Source: an uncultured virus (IMG/VR IMGVR_UViG_3300030413_000012) (taxonomy: Duplodnaviria; Heunggongvirae; Uroviricota; Caudoviricetes). From it: 56,155 nucleotides of DNA. Made by a program: the position numbers and the translations under genes. Of the stretch, positions 1 to 56,155 are shown piece by piece (within the stretch, counting starts at the first letter, position 1; every line of letters begins with the position of its first letter). The stretch is taken from the IMG/VR virus record IMGVR_UViG_3300030413_000012; one strand, given 5' to 3'. A model generated the notes under the pieces. The model saw only the letters and a program-made list of their open reading frames with translations, searched no databases and was not told the DNA's origin.

Positions 1-2
1 AA

Positions 3-1145
3 TTTATTTTTAACTATCCACATCTTAGCAACATAAAAACTGTTTCAGATGTTCCTCAAAATTCTATTGTCCAAGAAAAACTTAATGGAACAAATGTTGG
101 GATTATTAAACTTGCAGATGGTTCAATAATTTACAGAACCAGAGGAAGCATTGAACCAGATACTTTTATGAATAACATAAATTCTGCAATTTTGGAGGGG
201 GCTAAAACTCTTGTTGGAATAAATGAAGAAGTATTTGATGATTTTAAAAATAAATATATTGATATATTAAGAGAAGGTATAAAAAAATATATTGATGATT
301 TTGGAAATGTGCTGATGACAAGTATTGGAACAGAACTTGTAAATGAATTAAAATATATTTTTATTGAAAATTGGAAAATTGTTGGAATATTTGGAGAACT
401 TATTTCAAAATATAATCCAATTGCAGTTGATTCAAAAATGAAGTTTGGAATGTATCTTGATATGCCAGAAGATTATCAGTTTTATATTTTTGATATAATG
501 GTTACAGATAATGGTGGAAATATTTATTTTGCAGAACCATCAGAACTTAAGTTAATAAGGAAAACAAAGCTTATAAAAACAGTTTCTTCTGAAAAACTTT
601 CAGACATCAATGCAATGCAAAATAAATTTATAAATGAAGAGGGTGTTATTGCAAAATCTTCAGAAGGTTATTATAAAATAAAAAAAGATGAAGTTTTAGA
701 GTGGGAAAGACTTCTTGGAAAATTAAGCAATGTTGTTGTATTTTCAATAAATCATGTTTTTGAAGAGAATGGTTTTTCAACAAATGAAGTTTTAAACAAG
801 AAATTTTTAGAGCCAAATGCAATAGAACCTTTAATTTTGTCTTCATGGCAAGAAATAAAAAATAATGGTGTTTCAGAAAATGATTTGATTGAATATTATG
901 GTTCTAAGAACAAGGTTGATACTGAAATTAAAAGCATTGTTTCAGAAAAAGTATTGATTGGAATTGCAAGTGTTTTAATTAAAAATAATATTACTACAAA
1001 AGAAAAATTATATCTTGCACTTCCTGAATATTTCCAATTTACAGAACCTGTTCTTGATTGGAATGAAAGAAGAGGTAAATTATTACCTATAAAAAGTTAT
1101 GCTTTGATGATAAGAAAAATAATTGGAAATGTAGTAGGAAAATAA
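3..1145 (+). CDS. ATP-dependent RNA ligase (Rnl2/Rnl3-like nucleotidyltransferase), 5'-truncated by the window
   Basis: The frame of ORF 168..1145 is open back to position 3: FIFNYPHL...VQEKLNGTNVGI (motif I KxNG at 78-89), IIYRTRG (Ia), IFGELI (III), FYIFDIM (IIIa), EEGVIAK (IV), YYKIK (V). Confidence 0.75.
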   Translation, partial: FIFNYPHLSNIKTVSDVPQNSIVQEKLNGTNVGIIKLADGSIIYRTRGSIEPDTFMNNINSAILEGAKTLVGINEEVFDDFKNKYIDILREGIKKYIDDFGNVLMTSIGTELVNELKYIFIENWKIVGIFGELISKYNPIAVDSKMKFGMYLDMPEDYQFYIFDIMVTDNGGNIYFAEPSELKLIRKTKLIKTVSSEKLSDINAMQNKFINEEGVIAKSSEGYYKIKKDEVLEWERLLGKLSNVVVFSINHVFEENGFSTNEVLNKKFLEPNAIEPLILSSWQEIKNNGVSENDLIEYYGSKNKVDTEIKSIVSEKVLIGIASVLIKNNITTKEKLYLALPEYFQFTEPVLDWNERRGKLLPIKSYALMIRKIIGNVVGK

Positions 1146-1172
1146 ATAAAAATAACTAGGCTTATAAACTAA

Positions 1173-1862
1173 TTACATATAACCTAAATCTCTTAATTTT
1201 TTCATTATCTTTTCTTTTTCTGCATTTCTACTGGCTCTTTCATTTTCTGATGAACAGGATATTTCTTTTATTATATCAGGAATAGTTTTAGCATTACTGT
1301 TTATTGATGCTGAACAAAATGAGCAACCTAAACTTCTATATCTTTGTCCATCCTTTGCAAAATATAATGGATTAACTTTTATTTTATTTTCTTTTATGTA
1401 GTTCCAAATATCAAGTTCAGTCCAATCCAAAATAGGATGAACTCTTTTTTTATTAAATTCTTTTTCATCTGCTCTTGCTGGATTTTCATCTCTTCTTATT
1501 GCAACAAAAAGAACATCATATTTTTGTTCTAATTTTTTTAATGCATCAATTTTATTATATGAACAACAATTTCCATCTTTTTGATAATTTTCTGGAAGAA
1601 TTGATTTTTCAATAACTAAATTAAAGCCAAGTTCTTTTTGTTTATCTTTTAAAAAAGTATAAGATTCTTTAAATTCAACTCCATTATCAATAAAACCAAC
1701 ATCAAATGGAATTTTGCCAAATGCTTTTTTTATTAAATGCAATAAAACAGTGCTATCCTTTCCAAGACTAAACATTACTATTGGTTTTTTAAATTTAGTT
1801 ACTGTTTCTTTAATTATACTTATTGATTTATGTTCTTTATATTCCAAATCTTCTGTAATCAT
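1173..1862 (-). CDS. PAPS/APS reductase family protein (CysD/CysH-like PP-loop protein)
   Basis: PP-loop FSLGKDS, AIRRDENPARA, RVHPILDWTELDIWNYI, RYRSLGCSFC, CysD-like C-terminus MKKLRDLGYM; CC...CxxC cysteine motif. Confidence 0.85.
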   Translation of the reverse strand: MITEDLEYKEHKSISIIKETVTKFKKPIVMFSLGKDSTVLLHLIKKAFGKIPFDVGFIDNGVEFKESYTFLKDKQKELGFNLVIEKSILPENYQKDGNCCSYNKIDALKKLEQKYDVLFVAIRRDENPARADEKEFNKKRVHPILDWTELDIWNYIKENKIKVNPLYFAKDGQRYRSLGCSFCSASINSNAKTIPDIIKEISCSSENERASRNAEKEKIMKKLRDLGYM

Positions 1863-1911
1863 TTTATTTCCTTTTTTATATTCTTATATTTATATAATTA
1901 TTTGTTTAAAA

Positions 1912-1995
1912 TGCTGGTGATAGGATTTGCACCTATGAAGTCCTAAGACAAAAGGGTTTAAGCCTTTCCAGTTTGACTGCTTCTGATACACCAGC
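1912..1995 (-). tRNA. tRNA-Leu (anticodon TAA), long variable arm, no encoded CCA
   Basis: Reverse complement folds as GCTGGTG/CACCAGC acceptor stem + discriminator A, D arm, AAAGG-CT TAA AC-CCTTT anticodon arm, GTC-TTAG-GAC variable arm, ATAGG-TGCAAAT-CCTAT T arm. TTTAAATA box at 2031-2024 upstream. Confidence 0.88.
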
Positions 1996-2051
1996 ATATA
2001 TTTATAATATCTTTTTATTTATATATTTAAAGATACTTTTTTTATTTTAAT

Positions 2052-2356
2052 ATGAATATTATGTTAAAAATAGAATGGATTGATAAAACCTGGAGAGAAG
2101 ATTTAATTTGGTGTCCTTCACAACTTTATAGAAAATGTAAAATTTCTGATGAAAAAAATCAAAAAATAGTAACTTTATATTTGAGATGGAGACATGATGA
2201 CCCCTGGACAATGTCTATATTAAATGAAGATGAATCAGATTTTATTATATATAACAGGAAGATTTTGATTATTTTAAAGCAGATGACTTTAAATTAGCAG
2301 AAAAAGAAGCTGAAAAAATAATAGAAAAATATGGAGAAAAAGTATTAGCAGTATAA
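2052..2356 (+). pseudogene. Small hypothetical protein, apparently frameshifted near 2245-2255
   Basis: ORF 2052..2297 (WCPSQLY...YLRWRHDDPW) ends in poor-looking sequence, while another frame from ~2255 reads QEDFDYFKADDFKLAEKEAEKIIEKYGEKVLAV to a stop at 2356. The shift lies in an ATATAT run. Confidence 0.5.
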
Positions 2357-2368
2357 ATAAAAAATAAT

Positions 2369-3130: not shown

Positions 3131-3173
3131 CAGGTTTTGTTATATTGTTATTTATTTACTATTTATTATATTG

Positions 3174-3260
3174 CACATATAATATTGTCACATATAATAT
3201 TGTCACATATAATATTGTCACATATAATATTGTCACATATAATATTGTCACATATAATAT
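3174..3260. repeat. Tandem array of a 15-bp unit CACATATAATATTGT (5 perfect copies + 12-nt partial), iteron-like
   Basis: Units start at 3174, 3189, 3204, 3219, 3234 and 3249. Degenerate copies continue to ~3320 and recur near 3555-3590. Confidence 0.95.
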
Positions 3261-4757: not shown

Positions 4758-4779
4758 TTTTATAGTTTATTATTTTTTT

Positions 4780-6807: not shown

Positions 6808-6822
6808 AATATATTTATATGG

Positions 6823-8610: not shown

Positions 8611-9081
8611 TTATTCTGTCACAAAAGTAAAGGCTGTTTCTGGTTGGTTAGGGTTCATTTGTGTATAAAAATCCTGTTTTAGAGCTTCTTCTCCATACAA
8701 AACTTTTACAAATTTCATGTTTTTGTCAATTGAGCCATCTGTGTATTTTAGTTCCATTCCAAATAAATAACTTTCTTGTTCATATTTTTCAGCAAGCTTT
8801 TTTATAAACTTCTCATCTAATTTTAAAAAATATTTTTCTTCTAAATATGGGTCACTTATAAAAATACTTGGTTCTTTTGCAAGTGTTCCATCCTCATATT
8901 TATATCTTCCAAAAACTTCTGTTACTTTATAGCCAACAGATGTTATATCCTGAACAAGTTCTTTTGTTTTGCTTTCTTCTTCTGGTGTTCCTTTTATTTT
9001 CTGGGTAGAGGCACTCAATATTGCAAAGTTTCCTGTTTCTATTATTTTTTTCATTTCTTCAAATTCCATATTCATCAACAT
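8611..9081 (-). CDS. Hypothetical protein, DUF3293-like (common in viruses)
   Basis: FAILSA...GRYKY...KEPSIFI...LAEKYEQESYL pattern. Confidence 0.6.
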   Translation of the reverse strand: MLMNMEFEEMKKIIETGNFAILSASTQKIKGTPEEESKTKELVQDITSVGYKVTEVFGRYKYEDGTLAKEPSIFISDPYLEEKYFLKLDEKFIKKLAEKYEQESYLFGMELKYTDGSIDKNMKFVKVLYGEEALKQDFYTQMNPNQPETAFTFVTE

Positions 9082-12867: not shown

Positions 12868-13914
12868 TTAGATAAGAGCCAACATTGAATATATTATAAT
12901 AACTACAACATATAAAAGGATTAAAGTATAATAGGATTTTGTTATTGATTCTCCCTCTTTTTCACTATAATAATAACTTATAAGTATCAAAACAGTGGAT
13001 GCTATTACAGTAGAGCCAAACCATAATGTAAAATCAAGTGGTGTTGGCATCATTTGTGCTGCTGTTAAACCCTGCAAAGATGTTTGTGACCCACTCCCCA
13101 TTGAACTCATAAATATTCCAATAAAAACTGTTGGAAATCCTATCATCATGCCTATTGCCAAATAACTTATAAATGTTCCTGATTGCATTTTTTGGGCATA
13201 TCTTCTTTTTCCTTCACTTGCTATACTTATAGCACTTTTTAATGCTTCTCTTAATGAAGAGTCATTTGAATCTAAAGTATTTATTATGAATTCTCTAAAT
13301 TTTACCAATTCAAAATATTGATTTCTTGGTAACTCAAGAAGTCTTTTTAATGCAGTTGTGCTGTGTTCTATTTTCATTCTATTTCCTAATGGTATCAAAA
13401 ATTCATCAACAAATATTTTGGGATACCTTTTTAATAATTCTGGACTTATTAAAAGTTCATCAACAAAAGCTTTGAAACTAACATCTTGAGCCTGTCCTAT
13501 ATAATCATCCATAAAAATAAAGAAACCATCAACTATTTCTCTTTTTCTTTCTAATATATAATAAAGACCAGGTTTTATGAAAGTAAATGCCATGATAATT
13601 CCACTAAAAATCCAAAACCAGGGTTGTGTAAGAATTGGTATTTTAGAGGTTAATAATAGGTTTGTTCCAATAAACAATATTACTGTAACAACTATTACTT
13701 GTAATAATATTTTTCTTGTTTTCTTTTTATAATAATCAACAAATGAACTATAAATTGTTTGTTTTTCTTCTTTATGTTTTTTCTTTTTTTCTTGGTTTGA
13801 ATCTGGTATATAATTATTTGGTGTTTCTTCTTTTTTGAGTTCTATTGCTGAGTATGGCTCAGTATAAAAAGATATAAACTTTTTTAATAACTCTTTTATG
13901 TTCATAAACATCAT
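12868..13914 (-). CDS. TadC/GspF-like pilus assembly platform membrane protein
   Basis: Topology 2 TM - cytoplasmic helical domain - 3 TM; tandem with a similarly built gene; cognate ATPase and pilins in the window. Confidence 0.55.
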   Translation of the reverse strand: MMFMNIKELLKKFISFYTEPYSAIELKKEETPNNYIPDSNQEKKKKHKEEKQTIYSSFVDYYKKKTRKILLQVIVVTVILFIGTNLLLTSKIPILTQPWFWIFSGIIMAFTFIKPGLYYILERKREIVDGFFIFMDDYIGQAQDVSFKAFVDELLISPELLKRYPKIFVDEFLIPLGNRMKIEHSTTALKRLLELPRNQYFELVKFREFIINTLDSNDSSLREALKSAISIASEGKRRYAQKMQSGTFISYLAIGMMIGFPTVFIGIFMSSMGSGSQTSLQGLTAAQMMPTPLDFTLWFGSTVIASTVLILISYYYSEKEGESITKSYYTLILLYVVVIIIYSMLALI

Positions 13915-14903
13915 CAGCTAAACATTGATTGACTGTCTTTTTTAAATTTTAATGCTAATATAATAACTATTACTGGAATTATTAAAAATCCAAACCACAT
14001 TGGGGGAAGTGAAGTTATAAGTTGAAATATTGAAAGCACACTTGTTAAAGATGTTACTGAACCAGCAGAAGCTGCTGCTGTGCTAAGTATTGAATGATAA
14101 ATCAATATAAATATAACTTGTAAATATGAAAAAAGACCAATAAATAATCCAGCTAATCCTGAAAACATTATCATCATAACAGTTGTTGTTTGTTTTATAC
14201 TTGCCCTCTCATTTATAGTATTTTTTATTGTATCTACATTTTCAATTTGTTGCATTTTAAAAAATTCTTCAAAATCTCTGTTTTTAAGTTTTTCAGCAAC
14301 ACCTTTAAAAAATTGTGACAAATCAAAGTGGTTACTAAAAAGTTCTGCAAGGGTGTTAAATTTTTCATAAAAAGCTGGCTTTGTATCTGCTTTTAAAGCT
14401 ATAAATAACATATATTCTTCTGGAAGAGTTTTTTTCATAAAAGTTGGATTTGCTATAAAAAATGGATTATTGTAAAGTTTTATATTATAATAAAGCTGTC
14501 TTAAAATATCATATCTGCTATTAAATATTACTTTTTCTACTGATTTTATTTTATTATAAATGGTATATTTAATTACATTGTATGGTGCAAAATAAAGGAA
14601 GGCACCAATGGCTATCATAGCCATAGCACAAATTAATCCAAGTAGTAATGCACCTAATAGAACTATAAAAACAATACCAAATATTATTCCAAGAAAAAAA
14701 GTAATTATTCCAAAAAATTTGAGTTTATATGAACTTTTTATAAAATCAATCATGTTGTTTGTATAAATAAAATTTATATACTTTTTTAATTCTGTATTTT
14801 CTTCTTTTTCAAAATAACTCATAAGTTTAACAGCAAATTGTTTCTGTTCTTTTGAAAAAACAATTTCTTTTTCTATATGAGGTTTCTTTTTACCAAACAT
14901 CAT
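13914..14903 (-). CDS. TadB/TadC-like pilus assembly platform membrane protein
   Basis: Topology 2 TM - cytoplasmic domain - C-terminal TMs; stop/start overlap with the downstream gene at 13914. Confidence 0.55.
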   Translation of the reverse strand: MMFGKKKPHIEKEIVFSKEQKQFAVKLMSYFEKEENTELKKYINFIYTNNMIDFIKSSYKLKFFGIITFFLGIIFGIVFIVLLGALLLGLICAMAMIAIGAFLYFAPYNVIKYTIYNKIKSVEKVIFNSRYDILRQLYYNIKLYNNPFFIANPTFMKKTLPEEYMLFIALKADTKPAFYEKFNTLAELFSNHFDLSQFFKGVAEKLKNRDFEEFFKMQQIENVDTIKNTINERASIKQTTTVMMIMFSGLAGLFIGLFSYLQVIFILIYHSILSTAAASAGSVTSLTSVLSIFQLITSLPPMWFGFLIIPVIVIILALKFKKDSQSMFS

Positions 14904-33600: not shown

Positions 33601-33696
33601 TTTTCTATAAAGAAAATCATTTAATTTTGTGTGCTGAAGCTGCACAGGATTAAAAACATATTCTAAAACTTGTGATATTTTATTATTAAGCTTCAC
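30694..33696 (-). CDS. virB4: VirB4/TrsE-like type IV secretion ATPase
   Basis: Walker A GMMGSGKS, IIIIDPQAEY...VGGEYI, LNIFD, Walker B IFLIDEGW, ARKFRLGLIITTQ. Confidence 0.9.
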   Translation of the reverse strand: MKLNNKISQVLEYVFNPVQLQHTKLNDFLYRKEIQNIKFNDNLKFKATITPVKIFYDNLFKAKGKLSLHFVIFKPTYSVIDNTVSTIFKITNLANVSIPETFVSNAVSDNSDYYLKFENIPKYEMLRKIRGDILYLTTAINTYQEELRVNKQDSKAERLLKESQSMLKLLQYTQTNIENDINSTVTRFNVAFRKKYENSDFTNVIQPEYENFRHSIQQQGHILEKTTNRQQFTMFDYINTLDPVTYMYYIYSVNDATGHLYPFVYPSFINSDKVIFGNYIGTGQPILKDLWDLDSQNGIIIGMMGSGKSATSKAFLTRNLIFKNRKIIIIDPQAEYLYVTKMVGGEYINVLQENKKSQLSLNIFDKADYEIEDKGSGTAFSLKINDIADFIALTVTTEKHNELKQEPIYNQFLTTLIISFYNSKNIYSITDITNETVPTLNEFIAYIDAINKTFNEKNELHLYNKTYTAADINFSNYKKAFALITSACETLKLPEYSMFMGKTNINLSNKFIAFNTAGLPEKLQILVTYVIMNYVIKTMKTGLTEDKIFLIDEGWKVLSMLGSQYIKIIAKTARKFRLGLIITTQQIKDFDSDEGRALVENIQFAYLYRIQGEDSVMNSLKQLFKLNDDDIYFLKNYAGSNKLALTPEGKAARGILRFKDDNYRIKFMLTKNEVKFSESNPDSLLRMLPVEIINNRKKIEELETEITAKKEQGISSDYEEKLISYYSLILDTLRDIKSNIERSVIAGSSYNEEQVRNFVIKDAGIYSLDSNKEQIFGEGINIDESIYLLKNGYKEVQASPELEEIFGPEMFYVKSSLQDQIAIYNKFLIEKIKREYSNLLLGDIIEEQNDISFRIKEMKTNGSFYVYVPSTDSTQLWTIENENIKIEPSPKKDYFSKSTINNNFIYVHNIDTNKEIIYPQEQENFLKEKILYNEKRIQIRVLSEYFTQFSNQTNDIANEKIEQYYVLFTDLYNTKSSSGLVPKNIFRFNEYLNLFHEIFS

Positions 33697-39289: not shown

Positions 39290-41215
39290 ATGTTTAAATT
39301 TTTAAGTGTCATAAATAAGGTTTTGTTGATGGAAGGGCTTGAAGAAATAATAAAGAAATATAAAAAAATTAATGCTCAATCTAATGAAGATACTAATACC
39401 AAAGAAATTGGTGTCCAAAGAATAAGTCAGCAAATAATTGAGCAGGCAAATGTTGACAAGATGAGTAGCAAGTCAGCAAATGATGTAACTGGTGCTGAAA
39501 AAAAGAAAGCTTATTTGGTTGCAAAAACAATAAAAGATTATCAGTTTATTAGTAAACTTGCACCAAATGTTTCAAATGAAAAAGACCTTGTTGATGAACC
39601 AAGAATTGTTTTTGAAGACAATGGAATTTCTATTGTAAAAGCTATTCTTAAAATTAAAACAAATAAATATATTGTTGAAGAAGAACCATTAAGACCAGAA
39701 GAACTTGCTGTTATAAATCTTTATAAACAATTTGATAAACTTACACAAAAAATTGATTTTTCAAAGAAAAAAATATATGATGTCTATAAAGAAATAGTTG
39801 AAGTCATAAATGATTTTATAAAACAACAAAATATAGATGCTGGTTATATAAGAACTGAAGTTATTGCTTATTATTTAGTAAAAGAATTTGGTTATTATGA
39901 GCTAACACCAGTTCTTCTTGATAAATACATAGAAGATATAAATGGTGTAGAAAATACAGAAATGGTAATACATGACTCAAAATACACACAAGATTTTATA
40001 ACAAATATTTTTTTATCAAGACAAAAAATGGACACAATATTGAAAAGATTTGCTGAATATGGAAAAAGAACAATAACACCACAAGAACTGACAGCAGCAG
40101 TAACACTTCCAGAAGGTTCAAGATTTGTATGCATATATCCCTTTGAAAATCAGGGTGTTATGAGTTTTTCAATAAGAAAACAAGTATTTGGTTTAATAAG
40201 TCCAATGAAATCAATTGATTCAAATTTTGTAACACTTGATGAAATGTCATTTCTTGCATGGGTTATGTCAAAAAATGAACTTGGCAAAATTGGTTATATA
40301 GGATTACCTGGTTCAGGAAAAACATCCTTCTTAAAAACAATGGCTTTATTTATGCCAGAGTCTGCAAGAGTTTATTCTATTGAAACAACACCAGAACTAA
40401 TGTTGACACAAAAAAGCTGGACAAAAAATACTTATGCTTATGAAAATGAAGCACAAGTTAAATTAATTGAATCAAGTCTTATGTATAAACCAGATTATCT
40501 TATAATAGGAGAAGTAAAACTTGAAAAAGATTTAGTTGACAATATGTTTGCAGCCATGTCTTCTGGTTTTAAAACATCATTTACTTTTCATGCTGATACA
40601 ACCTCTGCTTTTATAAGCAAGATGCAAAGTAGAAGCTTAGATATACAACCAGATAGAATAATGAATATAAAATTTCTTATTTTTATAATAGAAGACCTTT
40701 CTGTAAAAAAAAGATATATTGCAAATATTGATGAAATATACAATTTTGATGTTGATAATAATAGATTAGATTATCAAACAATTTTATCAACAAAAAACAT
40801 CAAAAAAGAATCAAATTATATGTCATTATGTTCACTTGATTATAATACAGGAGCACCAAATTCAATATCAGAAGAGTTATATAATAAATTTATTTTAGAT
40901 GCAAGACTCCCATTAAAAACAGGACCAGGGGTTGACCCTGATATATTGTTACTTATGGTGTTAAAATCAAAAAACATTGAAGGTTATGCTAAAATATATG
41001 GTCATGGTGAGGATGAAAGACCTGAATATATTGAACCACAACTTAGATATATTGGTCAGTATAAAAAAATATATCTTGAAATGAGTGGCATAAGAAACTT
41101 TTTGATAGAAGAATTAAATAAATATATTGAAAATAAAAATAATCCAAACTTTAATGATGTTGCTGTTTTCTTAAATGATTTAAACAGAAATTATAACACA
41201 TTATTTAATTTATAA
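39290..41215 (+). CDS. Type II/IV secretion ATPase (archaeal TadA/ArlI/VirB11 family)
   Basis: FGYYELTPVLLDKYIEDI, LPEGSR, SFSIRK, Walker A GLPGSGKT, SIETTPEL, PDYLIIGEV, TFHAD. True start probably ATG 39329. Confidence 0.9.
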   Translation: MFKFLSVINKVLLMEGLEEIIKKYKKINAQSNEDTNTKEIGVQRISQQIIEQANVDKMSSKSANDVTGAEKKKAYLVAKTIKDYQFISKLAPNVSNEKDLVDEPRIVFEDNGISIVKAILKIKTNKYIVEEEPLRPEELAVINLYKQFDKLTQKIDFSKKKIYDVYKEIVEVINDFIKQQNIDAGYIRTEVIAYYLVKEFGYYELTPVLLDKYIEDINGVENTEMVIHDSKYTQDFITNIFLSRQKMDTILKRFAEYGKRTITPQELTAAVTLPEGSRFVCIYPFENQGVMSFSIRKQVFGLISPMKSIDSNFVTLDEMSFLAWVMSKNELGKIGYIGLPGSGKTSFLKTMALFMPESARVYSIETTPELMLTQKSWTKNTYAYENEAQVKLIESSLMYKPDYLIIGEVKLEKDLVDNMFAAMSSGFKTSFTFHADTTSAFISKMQSRSLDIQPDRIMNIKFLIFIIEDLSVKKRYIANIDEIYNFDVDNNRLDYQTILSTKNIKKESNYMSLCSLDYNTGAPNSISEELYNKFILDARLPLKTGPGVDPDILLLMVLKSKNIEGYAKIYGHGEDERPEYIEPQLRYIGQYKKIYLEMSGIRNFLIEELNKYIENKNNPNFNDVAVFLNDLNRNYNTLFNL

Positions 41216-42178
41216 TTTATCTTTTATTTTTTCAACATTAAATCCCAATGAAGTTAAATAGTTTTCTATTTCTACTTTATCATATTTTCCATATATTATA
41301 TTTTCAGAAACTGGCATATTTTTAATTTCAGAATAAGCTGCTTTAATTTCTGAAAGAATTTTTTCTTTATCATCTTCCATTATTTTTTCATCATCAACTA
41401 ATTCTTCAACAGTTTCTTCTATTGTGTTATTATTTTTTATATATTTTATTCCTTTTTTTGCACCAATACCAAAAATTCCAGTATTAAAATCTGTTCCAGT
41501 TAAAGTTGCAAGATAAATTAACTTATCTCTTGTTAATCCTGTTAATTTAAGAATTTTGCTGCTTGAAATTATTTGTAATGGCAAATAATGTCCTTTATAA
41601 CTTAAACCAAGATTTCTAAGAATATGGTCACAGCTATAAAGTATTGCATCATAATCTTGTGTTGAAGCATAATCAGCTTTGCCAATATTTACAAGATGAA
41701 CAACATTTGCTTCAGCCTCCTCTGGTGCATCAACATAATCACAGCCAAACATCAAAAGAAGTTTTTTAAATGACTTTATAATTGCAGAAGTTAAATAAAC
41801 AGTTCTTTGTGAATATAATTTTGCTTTTTCAAGGTCTCCATCTTTAACAGCTTTTTTCCTTAATTCTTCTGATTCTATTTTAATTCTTTTTCTTTCAGTT
41901 AATGTTTTATTTTTTAACTGAGATGGAAATCCATCAAATACAAATATAAAATGCATGTTATAGTTTTTTATAAGATAAGCATATCTATTTATAAAACCAT
42001 AAAGATGACTAATAACAACATCATCATGTTTTAAAATATCTCCATTATTATCTCTTATTGCTGTTAAAAACTGATATATGGCATTGTAGGCATCAACAGC
42101 AATTGTTTTTCCTTTGAGGTCTTCTAATTTTATTGTTTCTATTGGTATAAAATCTCTAAAGGATGAATTAAGTCCCAT
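41210..42178 (-). CDS. fen: Flap endonuclease 1 (archaeal type)
   Basis: IAVDAYNAIYQFL, SHLYG, FVFDG, APEEAEA, STQDYDAIL, TGTDFN, GIGAKK (H3TH). Confidence 0.92.
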   Translation of the reverse strand: MGLNSSFRDFIPIETIKLEDLKGKTIAVDAYNAIYQFLTAIRDNNGDILKHDDVVISHLYGFINRYAYLIKNYNMHFIFVFDGFPSQLKNKTLTERKRIKIESEELRKKAVKDGDLEKAKLYSQRTVYLTSAIIKSFKKLLLMFGCDYVDAPEEAEANVVHLVNIGKADYASTQDYDAILYSCDHILRNLGLSYKGHYLPLQIISSSKILKLTGLTRDKLIYLATLTGTDFNTGIFGIGAKKGIKYIKNNNTIEETVEELVDDEKIMEDDKEKILSEIKAAYSEIKNMPVSENIIYGKYDKVEIENYLTSLGFNVEKIKDKL

Positions 42179-44447: not shown

Positions 44448-45122
44448 ATGAGTTTTCATAACAACTATATAAATAATAGAATAGAACTGGTAAATAAGTT
44501 TGTAAAGAAAAATATAAGAAGGGATTTATATACATATGTAAGAATTTCTGATTGGAAAATAAAAGGACTGGCAAACAGGCTATTAACTGATAAATTAACA
44601 CCAGAAGATATGAGATATTTGAATCAAACTTTGACAAATGCACACAGACAAGATTACAGGACACCAGACCAGATGGCTTTAAATTTAATACTTGGTTGGG
44701 TTGTTGAAGATGTTATAAGAGATAAATTAAATGCACTTGGTATAAAAACAGAAAATGCTGGGACTGATAAAGAAAGAAGTTTTGGACCAATAGTTGCAAA
44801 TGTTCCAGACCTTTCAACTGAAACAACAAAAGGAACAAGATTTCTTGAAGTTGTAATGGGATATACTGGAAGAGAAAAAGAAAATGGTGTTGCATTAAGG
44901 GACAATAAATATGAAAATCTTATAATGTTTCACTCTTATCTTGTTGGCATAGACCTATTAAATGAACAAATGTTTGTTATAACTGATTTAGAAAAAAGAA
45001 AAGCTGGAGAAAAACAATATAATAGTGGATTTGGAAAGATAACCAGAACTGTTGAACTTACAAACAAAGACTTTTATGACTATGTAAAGGGGTTTGAAAG
45101 GCTTCAAAAAATATTAAAGTGA
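44448..45122 (+). CDS. PD-(D/E)XK-fold nuclease, restriction endonuclease-like
   Basis: Helix with Glu (GWVVEDVI), then VPDL...FLEVV, matching an E...PD...E catalytic layout; the canonical Lys is not in its usual position. Confidence 0.5.
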   Translation: MSFHNNYINNRIELVNKFVKKNIRRDLYTYVRISDWKIKGLANRLLTDKLTPEDMRYLNQTLTNAHRQDYRTPDQMALNLILGWVVEDVIRDKLNALGIKTENAGTDKERSFGPIVANVPDLSTETTKGTRFLEVVMGYTGREKENGVALRDNKYENLIMFHSYLVGIDLLNEQMFVITDLEKRKAGEKQYNSGFGKITRTVELTNKDFYDYVKGFERLQKILK

Positions 45123-47066: not shown

Positions 47067-48026
47067 ATGGAGGAAGAATTAAAGAACAGGGTGCCAGTTA
47101 ACAAGAACATTCTTGTTGTTGGTTATGAACATTTTATTTCATCTGATTTAGTTTCACTTTTACAAGCAAAAAATAATAAAGTAACATATAGTCTGGAAGA
47201 CACTCAGATTGATTATTCAAAACTATTAGTTGGCTCATATATTACTATTTATAATTCAAAAGAATTTATTTCTGATATTAAAAAAAGTGATATAATTTAC
47301 TTTTTACAATTTGCTAACAGAAATAAAAAAATTGAACAAAAAGAAATTGAAACATTTAAAAAAATAGTAACACTTGTTAAAAATACAGATAAAGATATAA
47401 AAATAGTTTTGTTGAGCAGTATTGATGTATATGGAACAAAAAGAAAAGATGAAACTTGTTTTGTTGATAGCCCACTATCACCAAATAATTATAATGGTGT
47501 AATGCTTGCATTTGTTGAAGAGTTTTTATTTAATACAATTGAAAATTATTCAATAATAAGAAGTTCTGAAATAATGACCAGAGAAATAATAAAAGAATTT
47601 TATCCACTTTTTTCTGACTTGTTTAAACAAAAAATATTTTTAATACCTAAAGCATCAAATCATATTAACATGTCAAGTAAATCAACTATATTGTCTGCTT
47701 TATTAATAGCTGGTGCTGAAGAAAATAAAGAATTTATAATAAATATTACAGAAACACCAAGTCTAACCTTTACTGAATTTTTTGAAAAACTTTATTTTTA
47801 TGCAAAAAGAGATTTAAAAATAGAAATACCAAAAAGATATATAAATTTATTTTCATGGAAAACAAAATTTCATAATATACCTAAATTTTTATTTAATGAC
47901 CAAAAAATTTCAACAATAGAAGCCAATACTGCTGATGTGATTTTTAGTTGGAGTTCAGATTTGTTTATACAAAAATTGCTAGAAAATTATAACAAAGCTG
48001 TTTCTTTAGAAAATAAATCCATATAA
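47067..48026 (+). CDS. Extended SDR / NAD-dependent epimerase-like protein, degenerate
   Basis: NILVVGYEHFISSDLV (GxxGxxG eroded), LLSSIDVYG, PNNYNGVM (YxxxK lost), YSIIRSS. Confidence 0.7.
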   Translation: MEEELKNRVPVNKNILVVGYEHFISSDLVSLLQAKNNKVTYSLEDTQIDYSKLLVGSYITIYNSKEFISDIKKSDIIYFLQFANRNKKIEQKEIETFKKIVTLVKNTDKDIKIVLLSSIDVYGTKRKDETCFVDSPLSPNNYNGVMLAFVEEFLFNTIENYSIIRSSEIMTREIIKEFYPLFSDLFKQKIFLIPKASNHINMSSKSTILSALLIAGAEENKEFIINITETPSLTFTEFFEKLYFYAKRDLKIEIPKRYINLFSWKTKFHNIPKFLFNDQKISTIEANTADVIFSWSSDLFIQKLLENYNKAVSLENKSI

Positions 48027-48481
48027 ATATTTGAAAAAAGAACATCAAGATTATATGGAATATCAGAATTATTATATTCAAAAACATAAGTGCTATCATT
48101 AATTGTTAATTTATTATTTGAATATAATTTGATTAAATCCTTTTTAAAAAAGACAGCTATTTTCTTTGTATTTGTATCTTTTAATATTATTAATGGGATT
48201 CTTATGTTTTTATATGAAAAACTTTTCCATTTATTTATTTGTTTTTCATTAAGACTTGATAAATACAATATCCCTTTTTTTCTTGCTTTTAATTCAGAAT
48301 TAAAAACAACATTTTTAAAAAATACTAAATAATCAGCAACATCAACTCTTTTCATTTTGCTACCACTATCTTTTAACCTTATAATGTAGCTTTCATTTTC
48401 ATCTTTTGTCTGTATTGGATATATTTTATTAAATGAATTCACAAACTGTCTTTCAAAGTATTTTCCACTATTAGTCATCAA
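47987..48481 (-). CDS. RecU/Hjc-like Holliday junction resolvase
   Basis: NSGKYFE...RLKD...VADYLVF...ELKAR, a PD-(D/E)XK layout typical of viral RecU-like resolvases. Confidence 0.7.
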   Translation of the reverse strand: MMTNSGKYFERQFVNSFNKIYPIQTKDENESYIIRLKDSGSKMKRVDVADYLVFFKNVVFNSELKARKKGILYLSSLNEKQINKWKSFSYKNIRIPLIILKDTNTKKIAVFFKKDLIKLYSNNKLTINDSTYVFEYNNSDIPYNLDVLFSNIYMDLFSKETALL

Positions 48482-48677: not shown

Positions 48678-50894
48678 ATGATAAAAATGAAAAGTCAAGC
48701 AACTGTTACAACAACATTAATAGTGGTAATAAGTATTGTGTTAGCTTTGATGCTTTTCTTTTTTATTTATGATTTTTATCATCAAACATTTGTAAATCCA
48801 ACACCAGCATTAAATATTGCTAATTTTCAGATTTTTGGATTTAAACAAAATTCAGCAAGTGCAGGATATTGCTCTTTTTCATTTAGTTTTACAACAACAC
48901 AGCCAATAAATAATTTTAACAATGAAAAGCTGGGATTTGTTACATCACAGGGATTTACTATTTTTCCAAATTATAATAATCTTACAGAAACCTCTTCTAT
49001 TGTAACTAATGGTGAATATCTATATCAATTTATTGCAAATAATAATTTTATAAACTACAATACAACAATATGCAACTATATTTCAAATGGTATGACAAAA
49101 ACTGAATATATTACTGGAATAAAAAGAAGTATAAACAACAAAATAATTTATCAGCCCTTTACATCAAGTATGCTTTTTACTGTTGATACACCAAATACAA
49201 ATCCAGCACAACTATTTGATAAAAATATAATAAGTGTTGCTTCAACTTATAATTTTGGATATATTTTAGTGTCTTCATTAACTAACAGTTCATTTAAACC
49301 TATTTATGCACCATCTGGTGAATTTTTATATCTTCAAAATGGAAAATATCAAATAGAATATATTTCTGGTTCAGCACCAGTAATATTTTTACAATGGCAG
49401 GGTATTGGTGGTGTTTCAATAACTGATAATCTTGAGCAAATTACAAACATGACTGTTATAAATAATGGTGAAATAAAAATTGACAATTATGAAACAACAG
49501 CACCAACTTCCCATTTTGTTATTTCTGCAAATAGAACAGAAGCATTACTTAATCAGACAATAAATGTTTCTTCAAATATAGACATGCCTGGCTATTATAC
49601 TTTTTCAATAAACAATGTGCCAATCAATAATTGTGTAGATATAACAAATGATTACTGTAAAATAACAGAATCAGCACCTAATACTTACAATGTTTCAGTT
49701 ACCTTTAAAAACACCACTTCATATAAAATAGCTATACCAATTTCAATAAAATTTTTATTATACAAAAATTATGTTCCTATAACTTTTACTAACACACAAT
49801 CAGATGCAACCCCTTCACCATTTCAGCAAATGTTTATATTTAATCCTTCAAATTATAGCAATTTTATAAATAATAATTTAGGTAATGTAAGATTCTTTTA
49901 TGGCAGCACTCCAATTCATAGTTGGTGTGAATATGGATGTTCAAACACCTCAACATATTCAATAATTTGGTTGAACATACCACAAGGAATTAATAGTAAA
50001 AGTGCAATAACAATAAATATGTCTTTTTTAAATATGAAAACAAATTATGATGGCAATATTGCAGGTGAAGCACCAGTTTTACCAAATACATTTGGTCAGC
50101 ATGAGTCCTCATATGCTGCACATGATAATGGTGCTAAGGTATTTGAGTATTATGAAAACTTTGCAGGTTCACACTCATTTCCTTATGACAATTATTATGC
50201 AAACCATACACAGTATGCTCATATTGATAATGGTTTGTATATAAATGCCAGTGGGGGTGGAACAAATGGAAATTATATATATACCAGCACCACATTTCCA
50301 ACTGGAGTTTTTGGTTATTATTTCAACAGTGGTGATGCTGGTGGTGGAGTTAGAAACTATCAAGGAGTTTATTATAGTTCATCTGAATTTCCAACTACTC
50401 CAGCAATTGGAACAGCTTGGTATTATGCTGCTTTTGGTTATGATTATGTTGCAAATATACAAATGTTTATGGATAATGATAGTATAAATGGAAATATGAA
50501 TTCTGCAACACAATATGGAGTCTCAACTTCTTGGCTGGGGAATCAGTTCTATTCAACATTTTCAATAAATCCATCTGGTTATTTAACAAATGCCTTTTTC
50601 TTAGGACCATATTATAATTATCCACATCCAGCAAATGCTACAAATCCTGATGTTGGAATATTTAACATTAAACCAACACCATCAAACAATCCACCATATG
50701 GCTGGGCTACACCTGAAAACATTACAAGCTATTATGTTTATTTAAATAAAACATATGATGGAACACCAATAACAACAGGGCATTTAATTATATATCCACA
50801 CACAGGCAGCACTAGTGTATGGTATTATATATTTGAAGCAGCATATCCTCCAAATGGAGTTATGCCAAGTATAAAAATAGGAAATGTTCAATAA
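48678..50894 (+). CDS. Type IV pilin-like adhesin with a DUF2341-like domain
   Basis: KS|QATV class III-like leader; YVPITFTNTQS...PFQQM...NVRFF...SWCE...IWL...GEAP...DNGAKVF...YPPNGVMPS pattern. Confidence 0.8.
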   Translation: MIKMKSQATVTTTLIVVISIVLALMLFFFIYDFYHQTFVNPTPALNIANFQIFGFKQNSASAGYCSFSFSFTTTQPINNFNNEKLGFVTSQGFTIFPNYNNLTETSSIVTNGEYLYQFIANNNFINYNTTICNYISNGMTKTEYITGIKRSINNKIIYQPFTSSMLFTVDTPNTNPAQLFDKNIISVASTYNFGYILVSSLTNSSFKPIYAPSGEFLYLQNGKYQIEYISGSAPVIFLQWQGIGGVSITDNLEQITNMTVINNGEIKIDNYETTAPTSHFVISANRTEALLNQTINVSSNIDMPGYYTFSINNVPINNCVDITNDYCKITESAPNTYNVSVTFKNTTSYKIAIPISIKFLLYKNYVPITFTNTQSDATPSPFQQMFIFNPSNYSNFINNNLGNVRFFYGSTPIHSWCEYGCSNTSTYSIIWLNIPQGINSKSAITINMSFLNMKTNYDGNIAGEAPVLPNTFGQHESSYAAHDNGAKVFEYYENFAGSHSFPYDNYYANHTQYAHIDNGLYINASGGGTNGNYIYTSTTFPTGVFGYYFNSGDAGGGVRNYQGVYYSSSEFPTTPAIGTAWYYAAFGYDYVANIQMFMDNDSINGNMNSATQYGVSTSWLGNQFYSTFSINPSGYLTNAFFLGPYYNYPHPANATNPDVGIFNIKPTPSNNPPYGWATPENITSYYVYLNKTYDGTPITTGHLIIYPHTGSTSVWYYIFEAAYPPNGVMPSIKIGNVQ

Positions 50895-50899
50895 ATAAA

Positions 50900-53699: not shown

Positions 53700-53892
53700 T
53701 ACTAGAAGGTCTATTATTTAAAATAAAAACAGTTTATAAAAAAATATTTATTGTTTTTATTTGTGTGGTGTTCTTGCCACAAATCCTTCTTAGTAATAAA
53801 ATAAAGATGCCAAAATCTCTTTCTATCTTTTCTTTGCTAATCTTTTTAGCTGTTATTTTTTAGCTGCTAATAAATATTCATTTAAAAGATTG

Positions 53893-54372: not shown

Positions 54373-54628
54373 TTAATCACACCTTTTTTACTATTACTTT
54401 ATTATAAAATATTTATTATTATATGTCAATATATAATATTTGTTTATTATTTCATTTTTTTTTATAAACCTGACTGTTTTCATATGATATATGTTCAAAT
54501 ACCATTTAAATATTTTTATAATACAACTATTTTAAATATCTATTTAAAGATTATAAAATAATAGGTGATTACCTGAACAAAGAAAATGAAGAAATATTAA
54601 AAAACAGAATATATGATTTTTTAATCAG

Positions 54629-54760
54629 ATGGAGTTAACTAATCAAACAGTAACCTTTGAAGAATTAATCAACCACTTTAAAGAAGATTCAATAAATGAA
54701 GTGCTAAAAATAGTTAAAGAAATGATTAAGAATAAAGAACTAAATATAAAAAATAGATGA
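54629..54760 (+). CDS. Small helical (wHTH-like) protein translationally coupled to Fic; perhaps the 3' part of a frameshifted gene
   Basis: MELTNQTVTFEELINHFKEDSINEVLKIVKEMIKNKELNIKNR; ATGA overlap at 54757-54760. Confidence 0.4.
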   Translation: MELTNQTVTFEELINHFKEDSINEVLKIVKEMIKNKELNIKNR

Positions 54761-55440
54761 ATGATTTCATGGTTAGAAAAATGACATGGAAAGAGTTTGC
54801 TGTTTCTTTTACCTACAATACAAATAAGATTGAGGGAAGCAAATTAAGTTTTGATGATGTTAAAACTATAATTTATAAAAATATAATACCAATAAATGCA
54901 GATAGAAATGACATTGAGGAATGCTATGGTTTATATAATGCAATAAATGCTATTAAACTTTTAGCAACATCAACAAATATTATTTTATCACCAGCTTTTA
55001 TTAAAGAGATACATTATATGGTATTTTTAAAAACTAAACCATTTGCAGGAAAATTTAGAGAAAAGCCAGCTGAAAATGTTGTAATTGTAAATAATTATGG
55101 AAACATTTTAGCAACACCACCTTCATCTGAAAAAGTAGTATCAGAAATAACAGACCTTTGCAATACAACAAACATACTAAATGAAAATAAGGATGAGCCA
55201 TTTAAATTTCATATAGGGTTTGAAAATATTCATCCTTTTATGGATGGAAATGGAAGAGTTGGAAGACTACTTTTAAATTTTATGTTGTTACAAAGAAAAA
55301 TGAATCCCATAGACATAGAATTTGAAAACAGACTTATTTATTATAGCTGTCTTGAAATGCCCTCTGAGGATTATATTAAGGCACTTAAAAAACTTTATGA
55401 AAAAGAACAAGTAGAAATACTTATACCTAAACCACAATAA
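54757..55440 (+). CDS. Fic-family AMP transferase with an N-terminal autoinhibitory helix (class II)
   Basis: TNKIEG inhibitory motif; HPFMDGNGRVGR catalytic motif. Confidence 0.92.
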   Translation: MNDFMVRKMTWKEFAVSFTYNTNKIEGSKLSFDDVKTIIYKNIIPINADRNDIEECYGLYNAINAIKLLATSTNIILSPAFIKEIHYMVFLKTKPFAGKFREKPAENVVIVNNYGNILATPPSSEKVVSEITDLCNTTNILNENKDEPFKFHIGFENIHPFMDGNGRVGRLLLNFMLLQRKMNPIDIEFENRLIYYSCLEMPSEDYIKALKKLYEKEQVEILIPKPQ

Positions 55441-55608
55441 ATTAAATAAAATAAAAAATATAACATTCATAATTTTATAAAAGAACAGTTACAGTGGTTA
55501 TCATGCTACAAAAATACATGAAATACATTTAAATATATATTGAGCATATAAACTATGATAATATGAAAAAAAAATTTAGTTAGAATTTATTTTAAAAAAT
55601 ATGATTCA

Positions 55609-55818
55609 ATGTTTGATGAGTATGACACTGAAACATTTGGTCTTATTAAAACCAATATTGAAGAATCTGCTACTCTGAAAAAATTATATAATGAATATAT
55701 AGACACCATGAATATAAAAAGAAATAATATAATTGAATTTTGCAATTTTCTAAAAACTAAAAATTATAATGCAACACCTGTATTTTTAGAGTTTGAACTA
55801 TGTGTGGATGATGTTTAA
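55609..55818 (+). CDS. Small hypothetical protein
   Basis: 69-aa ORF with typical codon usage. Confidence 0.5.
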   Translation: MFDEYDTETFGLIKTNIEESATLKKLYNEYIDTMNIKRNNIIEFCNFLKTKNYNATPVFLEFELCVDDV

Positions 55819-55971
55819 TTTTAAAATAAGAATACTTGCAAGGGTTCTTGAAAAAGAGCAAGTTGAAGATGTTAGAAAACTTATAGAACTTTCTTTAAAA
55901 AAGTAGTTTTTATTTAATTTTGTAGATATTTATTTTTAAACTATAATTTTAATAAAAGCTGATGTGATATA

Positions 55972-56061
55972 ATGGCTAAAACACAAGAAGATACAGATGA
56001 AGATGACCTTGATGAGGACTTTGAAGATTTTGATGATGATGGTGAATCTGAAGGAGGCTGA
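55972..56061 (+). CDS. Highly acidic 29-aa micro-protein ending Gly-Gly (not in the ORF track)
   Basis: MAKTQEDTDEDDLDEDFEDFDDDGESEGG; GTGAT motif upstream and TTTTAAA box further upstream. Confidence 0.5.
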   Translation: MAKTQEDTDEDDLDEDFEDFDDDGESEGG

Positions 56062-56109
56062 AGCTGTCTGAAAAATAAATAATTTTAATTTTTTGTTTTA
56101 TTTTTTATT

Positions 56110-56155
56110 GGGTCTGTAACTCAGGTTGGTTAGAGTCCTGCACTTTTAGCAGGAG
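56110..56155 (+). tRNA. 5' half of a tRNA, probably tRNA-Lys(TTT), cut by the window end
   Basis: GGGTCTG-TA-ACTC-AGGTTGGTTA-GAGT-C-CTGCA-CT TTT A; D stem ACTC/GAGT pairs and the D loop has the conserved GG. Confidence 0.75.

What the first reader, a model, noticed from the sequence alone, without database searches (positions are those of the whole stretch)
1..56155. GATC, GTAC and GGCC also missing, enforced through synonymous codon choice
Seen: no GATC, GTAC or GGCC found, while AGCT, TGCA, CATG, CTAG, GANTC and GGWCC occur. Asp is usually GAT here, but before a C-starting codon it is GAC (39584, 40934, 45448, 45955, 55153). Ser-Thr is AGC-AC rather than AGT-AC (25654, 49905, 52224), and Gly-Thr uses GGA/GGG/GGC rather than GGT. 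Established: these 4-mers are classic type II restriction sites (MboI/Sau3AI, RsaI/Csp6I, HaeIII/SuaI). Inference: with GCGC lost through CG, every G-N-N-C palindrome is purged, indicating a transferable element shaped to evade several restriction systems.
Basis: partly seen in the sequence, partly recalled or inferred. Interest (0 to 1): 0.7.

Follow-up and report, generated by a model that had tools for sequence, protein, structure and literature searches.

The report
Archaeal element purged of restriction sites
A large gene-transfer element of acid-mine archaea has removed every copy of three four-letter DNA words that restriction enzymes cut, even at the cost of changing its proteins; this is a known evasion trick, but this complete form is typical of lytic viruses and unexpected in so large a plasmid-like element.

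Summary
Confirmed. The 56,155 bases hold 0 GATC (75 expected), 0 GTAC (59), 0 GGCC (16) and 0 CG (934). Asp before C is GAC in 33 of 33 cases against 88 of 614 elsewhere. The loss is not only synonymous: it covers non-coding DNA, Asp-Pro/His/Gln pairs are depleted (18 against 44), and several 6-base palindromes are also purged. Escape from GATC and GTAC runs T-to-C, against the AT bias, which points to selection rather than deamination. The window looks like half of a 116-118 kb VirB4/pilus element from mine drainage. Its closest cellular links are to the Micrarchaeum family, whose genomes carry patchy GATC-type (4 of 129) and GGCC-type (4 loci) restriction enzymes. No GTAC enzyme was identified and the host is unproven. 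'G-N-N-C' is not a rule: the 12 non-palindromic GNNC words are normal, and virus-like contigs in a related bin lose GATC, GTAC, AGCT, CATG and CTAG while keeping CG. Best reading: avoidance of several host Type II enzymes. The total CG loss is separate and unexplained.

The parts
1..56155 (.). Whole window: 25.8% GC, no GATC, GTAC, GGCC or CG; GTATAC, GATATC, GTGCAC and CCWWGG also absent; CAGCTG, CTGCAG, TCATGA and GTMKAC once each
1173..1862 (-). CysD/PAPS-reductase-like gene; best nucleotide link to a cellular lineage (about 70% identity), yet free of all forbidden words
   Evidence: matched in 21 of 129 genomes of the family of G002 and 1 of 40 of the order of G001
1911..1996 (-). tRNA-Leu(TAA) that folds as a cloverleaf-like structure without a single CG
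3164..3260 (+). Tandem repeat, 6.5 copies of 15 bases, in a long non-coding stretch followed by a 42-base inverted repeat (3386-3474); possible replication origin (inference)
8611..9081 (-). 156-aa ORF with weak likeness to SAM lyases (possible anti-restriction gene); unconfirmed
   Evidence: Pfam PF23780 E 0.005 and DUF3293 E 0.06, both below cut-off; model pLDDT 40, fold search no match at E<=0.001
12868..14903 (-). Two membrane proteins, by position and hydropathy possibly pilus platform proteins (inference from the sequence; no family over cut-off)
30694..33696 (-). VirB4-like conjugal transfer ATPase
   Evidence: Pfam P-loop_TraG E 9e-13; NF045975 E 1.7e-37 and NF045971 E 2.7e-24, both below their cut-offs; three full-length relatives at 38-43%
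36619..39273 (-). FtsK/HerA-type ATPase, candidate coupling protein
   Evidence: Pfam FtsK_SpoIIIE E 1.4e-6, DUF87 E 1.6e-5; the role is inference
39290..41215 (+).
   Evidence: Pfam T2SSE; 25 non-self family members at 37-60% on contigs up to 138 kb
41210..42178 (-). FEN1-type flap endonuclease, at most 41% identical to all other hits except one family relative (52%)
44448..45122 (+). 224-aa ORF resembling PD-(D/E)XK nucleases, with no methyltransferase next to it or elsewhere in the window; specificity unknown
   Evidence: Atlas: unnamed viral, archaeal and bacterial clusters at 0.97 and TM 0.73-0.81; nearest named clusters PDDEXK_14 (0.90) and Hjc; no Pfam, PADLOC, NCBIfam or PDB hit
47987..48481 (-). 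Hjc-like Holliday junction resolvase
   Evidence: Pfam Hjc E 0.0014, below cut-off
48678..50894 (+). Surface protein with a KSQ-type N-terminus and a DUF2341-like domain common in Micrarchaeota and Parvarchaeota records
   Evidence: best locus titles are Micrarchaeia, 51%

Best explanation
The window is part of a large, AT-rich, conjugation-type extrachromosomal element of acid-mine archaea, probably of the Micrarchaeum family. Each time it enters a new cell its DNA is unmethylated for whichever orthodox Type II restriction systems that cell carries. Those systems are patchy between strains, so no methylation pattern carried over from the last host protects it. One 4-base site is enough for a cut, so selection has removed GATC, GTAC and GGCC completely, and several 6-base palindromes nearly so, by silent changes where possible and amino-acid changes where not. 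Each word answers a separate enzyme; there is no single GNNC reader. Shown: the absences, their significance, the direction of escape, the amino-acid effect, the transfer genes, and GATC- and GGCC-type enzymes in the candidate family. Inferred: the host, that these enzymes act on the element, a GTAC enzyme, and transfer by conjugation. The total loss of CG is a separate layer that palindromic enzymes do not explain.
For: (1) Zero against 75, 59 and 16 expected, in coding and non-coding DNA. (2) Escape is T-to-C against the AT bias: GAC before C 33 of 33 while Asn uses AAC in 27 of 134; AGC-AC 24 against 6.1 expected without compensation (p 4e-8); GAC before Pro/His/Gln 18 against 8.9 (p 0.005). 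Deamination of a methyl-C cannot give this. (3) Asp followed by Pro/His/Gln 18 against 44.4+-5.8 in 300 shuffles; Asn 96/105, Tyr 68/67 and Glu 67/66 are normal. (4) 5 of 15 palindromic 6-mers are at or below 0.2 of expectation against 1 of 635 non-palindromic ones (p 2e-8), and that one belongs to CCWWGG. (5) In the family of G002: DpnII-family nuclease in 4 of 129 genomes; C5 methyltransferase in 10 of 129, with an NgoPII-family nuclease beside it at 4 loci and M.HaeIII as best PDB match of the one tested, E 1e-102; ThaI at 2 loci. (6) Chromosomal DNA keeps the words: 0 of 110 loci of 4 kb or more lacked GATC or GTAC, 3 lacked GGCC; 590 kb of G099 has GATC 1105/953 and GTAC 593/612. (7) Six related virus-like contigs binned in G099 (24,846 bases) have GATC 2/44, GTAC 0/34, AGCT 0/50, CATG 0/43, CTAG 0/38 with normal CG: the same strategy with another word set. 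(8) GATC, GTAC and GGCC are listed archaeal methylation motifs (PMC10609329).
Against: The host is not identified: no spacer-like match in 129 plus 40 genomes for 40 of the 56 kb, and Thermoplasmatales could not be searched. No GTAC-specific enzyme was identified. The GATC and GGCC enzymes are rare in the candidate family (about 3% of genomes each), which seems weak pressure for a total purge unless the true host lineage is richer in them. About half of the replicon is unseen and could encode its own systems. Published bacterial data say that plasmids over 100 kb rarely become target-free (PMC10359461) and that full elimination marks non-temperate phages (PMC6286503), so a resident plasmid is not expected to reach zero. 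AGCT, CATG and CTAG are only mildly depleted although they are archaeal motifs too.
Confidence: 0.72

Rival explanations
1. Self-imposed avoidance: the element carries its own restriction nuclease(s), such as the ORF at 44448-45122 or genes in the unseen half, and is immune because it lacks the sites rather than because it methylates them. The nuclease would attack rival elements or unmethylated host DNA.
For: A PD-(D/E)XK-like ORF without a methyltransferase partner. Absolute zero fits constant rather than occasional exposure. The close ATPase clade lacks Asp-Pro/Asp-Gln at three columns where 8-9 of the 9 distant members have them, which hints at long, host-independent GATC avoidance.
Against: Nuclease activity and specificity are untested; the model had pLDDT 34. 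One enzyme cannot account for three 4-mers, several 6-mers and CG. An unrelated virus-like element loses GATC and GTAC too, which points to an outside agent. The clade signal rests on related proteins and few columns.
Confidence: 0.13
2. Avoidance of methylation rather than of cutting at unmethylated sites: host methyltransferases would mark GATC, GTAC, GGCC or CG, and methyl-directed nucleases in the next host would cut the marked DNA.
For: GATC is also avoided where methyl-directed DpnI-like enzymes occur (PMC4687349, PMC6286503; passages). N6/N4 methyltransferases are over cut-off in 54 of 129 genomes of the candidate family. It could cover CG if a CG methyltransferase exists.
Against: No search for methyl-directed nucleases was run. 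No CG-specific methyltransferase was identified; C5 enzymes occur in only 10 of 129 genomes. The same papers report no avoidance of Type IV sites in general.
Confidence: 0.07
3. Mutational erosion: methylated bases in these words mutate away, as in CpG decay, with no selection against the sites.
For: For CG the direction fits: at 92 aligned positions where a relative has CG and the residues are identical, the window has CA or TG in 53; TG is at 1.33 of expectation; the AT-rich genome G099 already has CG at 0.26.
Against: For GATC and GTAC the compensating change is T-to-C, and no constrained Asp-Pro or Ser-Thr site keeps the word. For CG, NNC before G is 0 of 2166 against 13-21% before other bases, which would need a very large rate excess (my estimate: about 100-fold).
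Confidence: 0.04
4. A G-anchored reader: one degenerate GNNC nuclease, or DNA phosphorothioation, whose motifs (recalled: GATC, GTAC, GGCC, GAAC/GTTC) share the G-N-N-C form.
For: The three absent CG-free 4-mers all start with G. The element has a PAPS-reductase-fold gene with weak SspD and BrxP hits.
Against: All 12 non-palindromic GNNC words are near expectation, GAAC/GTTC 364 against 334. DndC is over cut-off in 0 of 129 genomes, though no control genome passed either. The gene matches CysD far better (E 1e-51) than DndC (E 0.002).
Confidence: 0.03
5. Assembly or library artefact.
For: The best holders may be the source samples.
Against: Nine runs from three years hold 94-100% of the sampled words; long contigs of two runs agree but for a few letters; reading frames are intact and codon compensation is systematic.
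Confidence: 0.01

Closest known systems
Restriction-site avoidance in prokaryotic viruses (Rusinov et al. 2018, PMC6286503; abstract and passages read)
   Same: Palindromic sites of orthodox Type II systems are removed; complete or near-complete elimination is reported for about one tenth of viral genomes.
   Different: There full elimination marks non-temperate phages, and methylation by the host is said to weaken it in temperate ones. This element has transfer and pilus genes, and no capsid, portal or terminase hit among the 30 ORFs scanned with PHROGs; it also lacks CG altogether.
R-M target avoidance by plasmids (Shaw et al. 2023, PMC10359461; abstract and one results section read)
   Same: A transferable replicon avoids palindromic targets more than chromosomes do.
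   Different: That work is on bacteria and finds that small plasmids adapt by sequence while large ones carry protective genes, a target-free state being hard to reach above 100 kb. Here at least 56 kb are free of three 4-base targets and no methyltransferase lies in the window.
Palindrome under-representation in acid mine drainage genomes and viruses (Dick et al. 2009, PMC2745766; passages read)
   Same: GATC and GGCC are named among the most consistently under-represented palindromes in this kind of habitat.
   Different: It reports partial depletion, not absence; GTAC and CG are not among the five words named. Its tetranucleotide heat map (supplement) was not seen.
Archaeal R-M systems for these words: DpnII-like/M.ThaII (GATC), SuaI/PhoI (GGCC), M.MhuII and PabI (GTAC), ThaI (CGCG) (PMC10609329, PMC11033074, PMC10273834; passages read)
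   Same: They are the kind of enzyme inferred to act; DpnII-, NgoPII/HaeIII- and ThaI-family genes occur in the candidate host family.
   Different: None is shown to meet this element, and no GTAC system was identified in the candidate family.
CpG depletion by CG-specific methyltransferases M.SssI/M.MpeI in Mollicutes (search listing only; the rest recalled)
   Same: Loss of CG with excess of TG/CA.
   Different: It concerns CG only, is partial as I recall it, and no CG methyltransferase was found here; it cannot explain the T-to-C escape from GATC and GTAC.

Membership tests
Type II restriction-site avoidance | Palindromic 4-6 base words far below Markov expectation | tested here: met
   0/75, 0/59, 0/16; 5 of 15 palindromic against 1 of 635 other 6-mers
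Type II restriction-site avoidance | Loss due to selection, not to composition or codon bias | tested here: met
   Codon shuffles; T-to-C compensation and dipeptide depletion
Type II restriction-site avoidance | Cognate restriction enzymes in the host | tested here: inconclusive
   Host unproven; DpnII family 4 of 129 and NgoPII family 4 loci in the candidate family; no GTAC enzyme identified
Type II restriction-site avoidance | Added sites reduce establishment in a restricting host | not testable with these tools
   Needs a culture and a transfer assay
Conjugative plasmid or ICE | VirB4-type ATPase | tested here: met
   30694-33696: Pfam P-loop_TraG over cut-off; NCBIfam VirB4 models below cut-off
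Conjugative plasmid or ICE | Coupling protein | tested here: inconclusive
   36619-39273 has FtsK/HerA hits only
Conjugative plasmid or ICE | Relaxase and origin of transfer | tested here: inconclusive
   No relaxase family among 49 ORFs; about half of the replicon is not in the window
Conjugative plasmid or ICE | Not part of a cellular chromosome | tested here: inconclusive
   No core translation or transcription gene in 49 ORFs; ATPase family not found in genome contigs nor in 401 plus 40 DPANN genomes searched; relatives carry conflicting bin labels, Saccharolobus and Caldisericia; circularity not seen
Methylation-driven mutational depletion | Escape by C-to-T or G-to-A at the methylated base | tested here: not met
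   GATC and GTAC escape by T-to-C; for CG alone the direction fits
Methylation-driven mutational depletion | Cognate methyltransferase on the element | tested here: inconclusive
   None in the window by Pfam or six-frame motif scan; other half unseen
Single GNNC reader or Dnd phosphorothioation | Hybrid non-palindromic GNNC words also depleted; dnd genes in the host lineage | tested here: not met
   12 of 12 hybrid words near expectation; DndC over cut-off in 0 of 129, without a positive control

The most novel reading that the evidence does not exclude
A family of roughly 100-140 kb transferable elements of ultra-small acidophilic archaea lives without methylation cover, like a lytic phage. 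It defends itself by sequence alone against SAM-independent Type II enzymes, may drain SAM with a lyase to stop SAM-dependent systems, and carries a methyltransferase-less nuclease aimed at a word that it has itself deleted. Its total lack of CG, tRNA included, would then report an undescribed archaeal activity that reads the bare CG step.
Probability: 0.13. Interest if true: 0.85.

Novelty: new variant of a known kind. Interest (0 to 1): 0.52.

Why it matters
Restriction-site avoidance is well known, but the bacterial literature read here expects a total purge in lytic phages and small plasmids, not in a replicon of over 100 kb that must live inside its host. This element breaks that expectation in an uncultured archaeal lineage with almost no described mobile elements, which suggests very frequent host switching or a life without methylation. 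The missing words are a prediction of the host's restriction set (GATC, GTAC, GGCC, probably GTMKAC, GATATC, CCWWGG, CAGCTG) and can be matched against methylomes to find the host. The comparison with the virus-like contigs separates the palindrome loss from the CG loss, which makes the unknown CG reader a question of its own.

Tried and rejected
DNA of relatives was not obtained. No whole genome is held for the window. Genome and viral scans found no family member, nor did 401, 40 and 5 DPANN genomes (only ordinary pilus ATPases at E 1e-13 to 1e-29). A viral scan with the nuclease-like ORF reported 5 related stretches but returned 0 loci. Plasmid records gave only distant VirB4s, all 130 under 60% identity. 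The nuclease-like ORF had no match in plasmids, phages, PDB, or 301 plus 251 DPANN genomes; its single-sequence model failed. The SAM-lyase-like ORF stayed unconfirmed. No CRISPR-spacer-like hit for window 1-20000 and 36200-56155 in 129 and 40 genomes, with only 2 or 7 candidates scored per genome; 20001-36199 was not searched. Rfam: 0 matches. The PabI family search in 5 genomes had no ringing control and shows nothing. Gapped two-part words gave codon-periodicity effects and no clear absent motif. Trp-Pro, which forces GGCC, is 0 against 2.4 expected: too few to test. RNA-library contigs of one sample cover 44487-45290, but contigs cannot show transcription; the two small-share runs are no evidence of habitat. 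Of 1,591 degenerate palindromic motifs only GTRYAC (0/12.2), GTMKAC (1/14.2) and GAYRTC (3/18.3) pass a Bonferroni limit; CCWWGG, GATATC and CAGCTG do not pass singly. Paper searches that found no description of this element or of a CG-free archaeal replicon; the library lacks most subscription papers.

Full report
Observation. The claim holds exactly. In 56,155 bases of 25.8% GC there is no GATC (75.4 expected under the maximal-order Markov model), no GTAC (58.9) and no GGCC (16.1); these are the only absent 4-mers whose two 3-mers both occur. CG is absent as well (934 expected), and all four words are zero in each of 8 blocks. AGCT (123/168), CATG (86/141), CTAG (36/49) and TGCA (280/322) are present. 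Shuffling synonymous codons among 43 ORFs 200 times never gave fewer than 48 GATC, 69 GTAC or 3 GGCC. Asp is GAC before C in 33 of 33 cases against 88 of 614 elsewhere (p 1.7e-26), while Asn, Tyr and His keep their T-ending codon before C (107 of 134, 93 of 98, 15 of 17). AGT, GGT and TGT never precede AC (0 of 98, 0 of 80, 0 of 5) and GTA never precedes C (0 of 73). ATC, TAC and GCC codons never follow a G (0 of 39, 0 of 71, 0 of 47).

More than synonymous choice. The words are also missing from 8,839 bases outside those ORFs (expected 11.7, 5.8 and 2.8). Proteins are affected: Asp followed by Pro, His or Gln, which forces GAY-C, occurs 18 times against 44.4+-5.8 in 300 within-protein shuffles, while the Asn, Tyr and Glu controls are normal. 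The purge extends to 6-mers: GTATAC 0/9.2, GATATC 0/8.4, CAGCTG 1/10.0, TCATGA 1/7.6, CTGCAG 1/6.5; 5 of 15 palindromic 6-mers with an expectation of 5-25 fall to a fifth or less, against 1 of 635 non-palindromic ones (p 2e-8), and that one is part of CCWWGG, 0/9.0. Singly, only GTRYAC, GTMKAC and GAYRTC pass correction for the 1,591 motifs tried.

Selection, not decay. A methylated cytosine that deaminates turns GAT-C into GAT-T or AAT-C, which changes residues, so constrained sites would keep GATC. None does. The compensating change is T-to-C, against the AT bias: GAC before Pro/His/Gln is 18 against 8.9 expected without compensation (p 0.005) and AGC-AC is 24 against 6.1 (p 4e-8). The site itself is selected against. 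For CG the escape is mostly to TG or CA (53 of 92 aligned positions), which fits either decay or selection.

No G-N-N-C rule. GCGC cannot be judged apart from CG. All 12 non-palindromic GNNC words are near expectation, which a single degenerate reader would not allow. GAATTC and GTTAAC survive while C- and T-starting 6-mers go. Phosphorothioation, whose motifs I recall as sharing this form, finds no support: DndC is over cut-off in 0 of 129 candidate genomes (no control passed either), and the element's PAPS-reductase-fold gene is CysD-like.

What the DNA is. Pfam on 49 ORFs shows a VirB4-like ATPase, an FtsK/HerA-type ATPase, a VirB11/FlaI-type ATPase, FEN1, an Hjc-like resolvase, DnaJ, two Fic proteins, RlaP and a nucleotidyl transferase, and no ribosomal protein, tRNA synthetase, RNA polymerase or DNA methyltransferase; there is one tRNA. 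Identical proteins lie on contigs of up to 118,155 bases, with close variants on 116,446 and 116,617, so I infer that the window is about half of one replicon. The DNA occurs in mine drainage metagenomes (9 runs with half of the words or more). The secretion ATPase defines a family of 25 further proteins at 37-60% on contigs of up to 138 kb. It was not found in genome contigs nor in 401 and 40 DPANN genomes, and two relatives carry conflicting bin labels. I read it as an extrachromosomal, conjugation-type element; relaxase and circularity are not shown.

Host. Unproven. The CysD-like gene matches at the DNA level in 21 of 129 genomes of the family of G002 (the genome behind locus L079, titled Candidatus Micrarchaeum sp.), best 70% in G099, against 1 of 40 in the order of G001 (Parvarchaeum). 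The DUF2341-like domain has its best loci in Micrarchaeia records. Among 14 genomes compared, G099 is the nearest in dinucleotide and codon usage. Thermoplasmatales, which share the habitat and methylate GATC (PMC11033074, passages), could not be searched. No spacer-like match was found.

Cognate enzymes. In that family a DpnII-family nuclease occurs in 4 of 129 genomes and a C5 methyltransferase in 10 of 129. At 4 of those loci an NgoPII-family nuclease lies beside it, and the one methyltransferase tested matches M.HaeIII at E 1e-102; that HaeIII and NgoPII read GGCC is recalled. ThaI occurs at 2 loci. N6/N4 methyltransferases are over cut-off in 54 of 129. I scanned 42 of the 145 ORFs extracted from 50 such loci with Pfam and 18 with PADLOC; no GTAC enzyme could be named. 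GATC, GTAC and GGCC are all listed archaeal methylation motifs (PMC10609329, passages and one fifth of the text).

Controls. Of 110 fetched loci of 4 kb or more, mostly DPANN chromosomal DNA, 0 lacked GATC, 0 lacked GTAC, 3 lacked GGCC, and the lowest CG ratio was 0.21. In 590 kb of G099, GATC is 1105/953 and GTAC 593/612. Six of the 25 G099 contigs examined differ: they are related virus-like pieces with GATC 2/44, GTAC 0/34, AGCT 0/50, CATG 0/43, CTAG 0/38, GGCC 2/3.6 and normal CG (ratio 0.84). I picked them for lacking GATC and GTAC; the other three zeros came afterwards. They are not independent of each other and binning does not prove a host. They show that total palindrome loss recurs in AT-rich mobile DNA of this kind, with an overlapping but different word set, and that it is separable from CG loss.

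Mechanism. Most likely (0.72) the element meets several orthodox Type II enzymes as it moves between strains whose systems differ, and it arrives unprotected each time. Rivals: a nuclease of its own (0.13), for which the methyltransferase-less PD-(D/E)XK-like ORF at 44448-45122 is a candidate but untested; methyl-directed restriction (0.07); decay (0.04); a GNNC reader (0.03). A weak SAM-lyase likeness at 8611-9081 would fit a division of labour, SAM drainage against SAM-dependent systems and site loss against the others, but the fold was not confirmed. Protein data hint that GATC avoidance is shared by the close ATPase clade and not by the distant one, although three VirB4 relatives show no deficit.

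Comparison and novelty. The strategy is known. Rusinov et al. 2018 (PMC6286503; abstract and passages) report complete or near-complete elimination in about a tenth of prokaryotic viruses, mainly non-temperate. Shaw et al. 2023 (PMC10359461; abstract and one section) find that large bacterial plasmids rarely lose targets by mutation and carry protective genes instead. Dick et al. 2009 (PMC2745766; passages) name GATC and GGCC as depleted in acid mine drainage genomes; its supplement was not seen and may bear on the comparison. PMC4687349 and PMC10273834 were read in passages. Eight searches found no description of this element family or of a CG-free archaeal replicon. Earlier notes of this scan describe CG-free phages and other purged elements; they are unchecked leads. 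Verdict: a new variant of a known kind, notable for its completeness in a large transfer element of uncultured archaea. Interest 0.52.

Noticed in passing
window 1-56155: CG is entirely absent (0 of 934 expected), including all CGN and NCG codons and the tRNA. With the CG usage of genome G099, about 133 CG outside palindromic contexts would remain, so palindromic enzymes cannot explain it.
   Followed up: partly
L179, L180, L183, L184, L185, L188 (small contigs of G099): Six related virus-like contigs (DNA polymerase PHROG 11768 in the three tested, a packaging-type ATPase, an FkbM methyltransferase) lack GTAC, AGCT, CATG and CTAG entirely and GATC nearly, with normal CG. No relative was found in viral contigs.
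   Followed up: partly
G099 (L133, L134, L166-L178, L190-L205): A genome of the Micrarchaeum family with only 22% GC and CG at 0.26 of expectation; AGCT 694/1101 and CATG 767/1008 are depleted, GGCC 130/54 enriched. No C5 or N6/N4 methyltransferase was found in it.
   Followed up: partly
window 44448-45122 +: PD-(D/E)XK-like ORF of an unnamed family spread over viruses, archaea and bacteria, with no methyltransferase beside it.
   Followed up: partly
window 8611-9081 -: Weak SAM-lyase/DUF3293 likeness inside a run of small, variable genes (5148-12829) such as often hold anti-defence functions.
   Followed up: partly
window 3159-3600: 15-base tandem repeat (6.5 copies), a 42-base inverted repeat and further AT-rich repeats in about 2 kb without long ORFs; candidate replication origin.
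   Followed up: no
window 3-1145 +, 7961-8602 -, 2369-2827 -, 54757-55440 +: RNA-ligase-like and RlaP nucleotidyltransferase genes (possible RNA repair pair) and two Fic-domain genes.
   Followed up: no
window 15411-29597, 42578-44370, 48678-53699: Very large surface or membrane proteins (1772, 1127, 1248, 738, 846 aa), several with K-[AGS]-Q N-termini that resemble class III signal peptides (motif recalled).
   Followed up: no
alignment A1 (P0002-P0025): The close ATPase clade lacks Asp-Pro/Asp-Gln at three columns where the distant clade has them in 8-9 of 9 rows; Asp+Pro/His/Gln is 7 against 19.4 in P0002-P0008 and 66 against 44.4 in the distant set. The VirB4 relatives show no such deficit (12 against 13.0).
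   Followed up: partly
L070, L024, L083: GGCC is absent from these loci of a Micrarchaeota bin (0/19), a Bathyarchaeota bin (0/16) and a viral contig (0/12, also GCGC 0/15).
   Followed up: no
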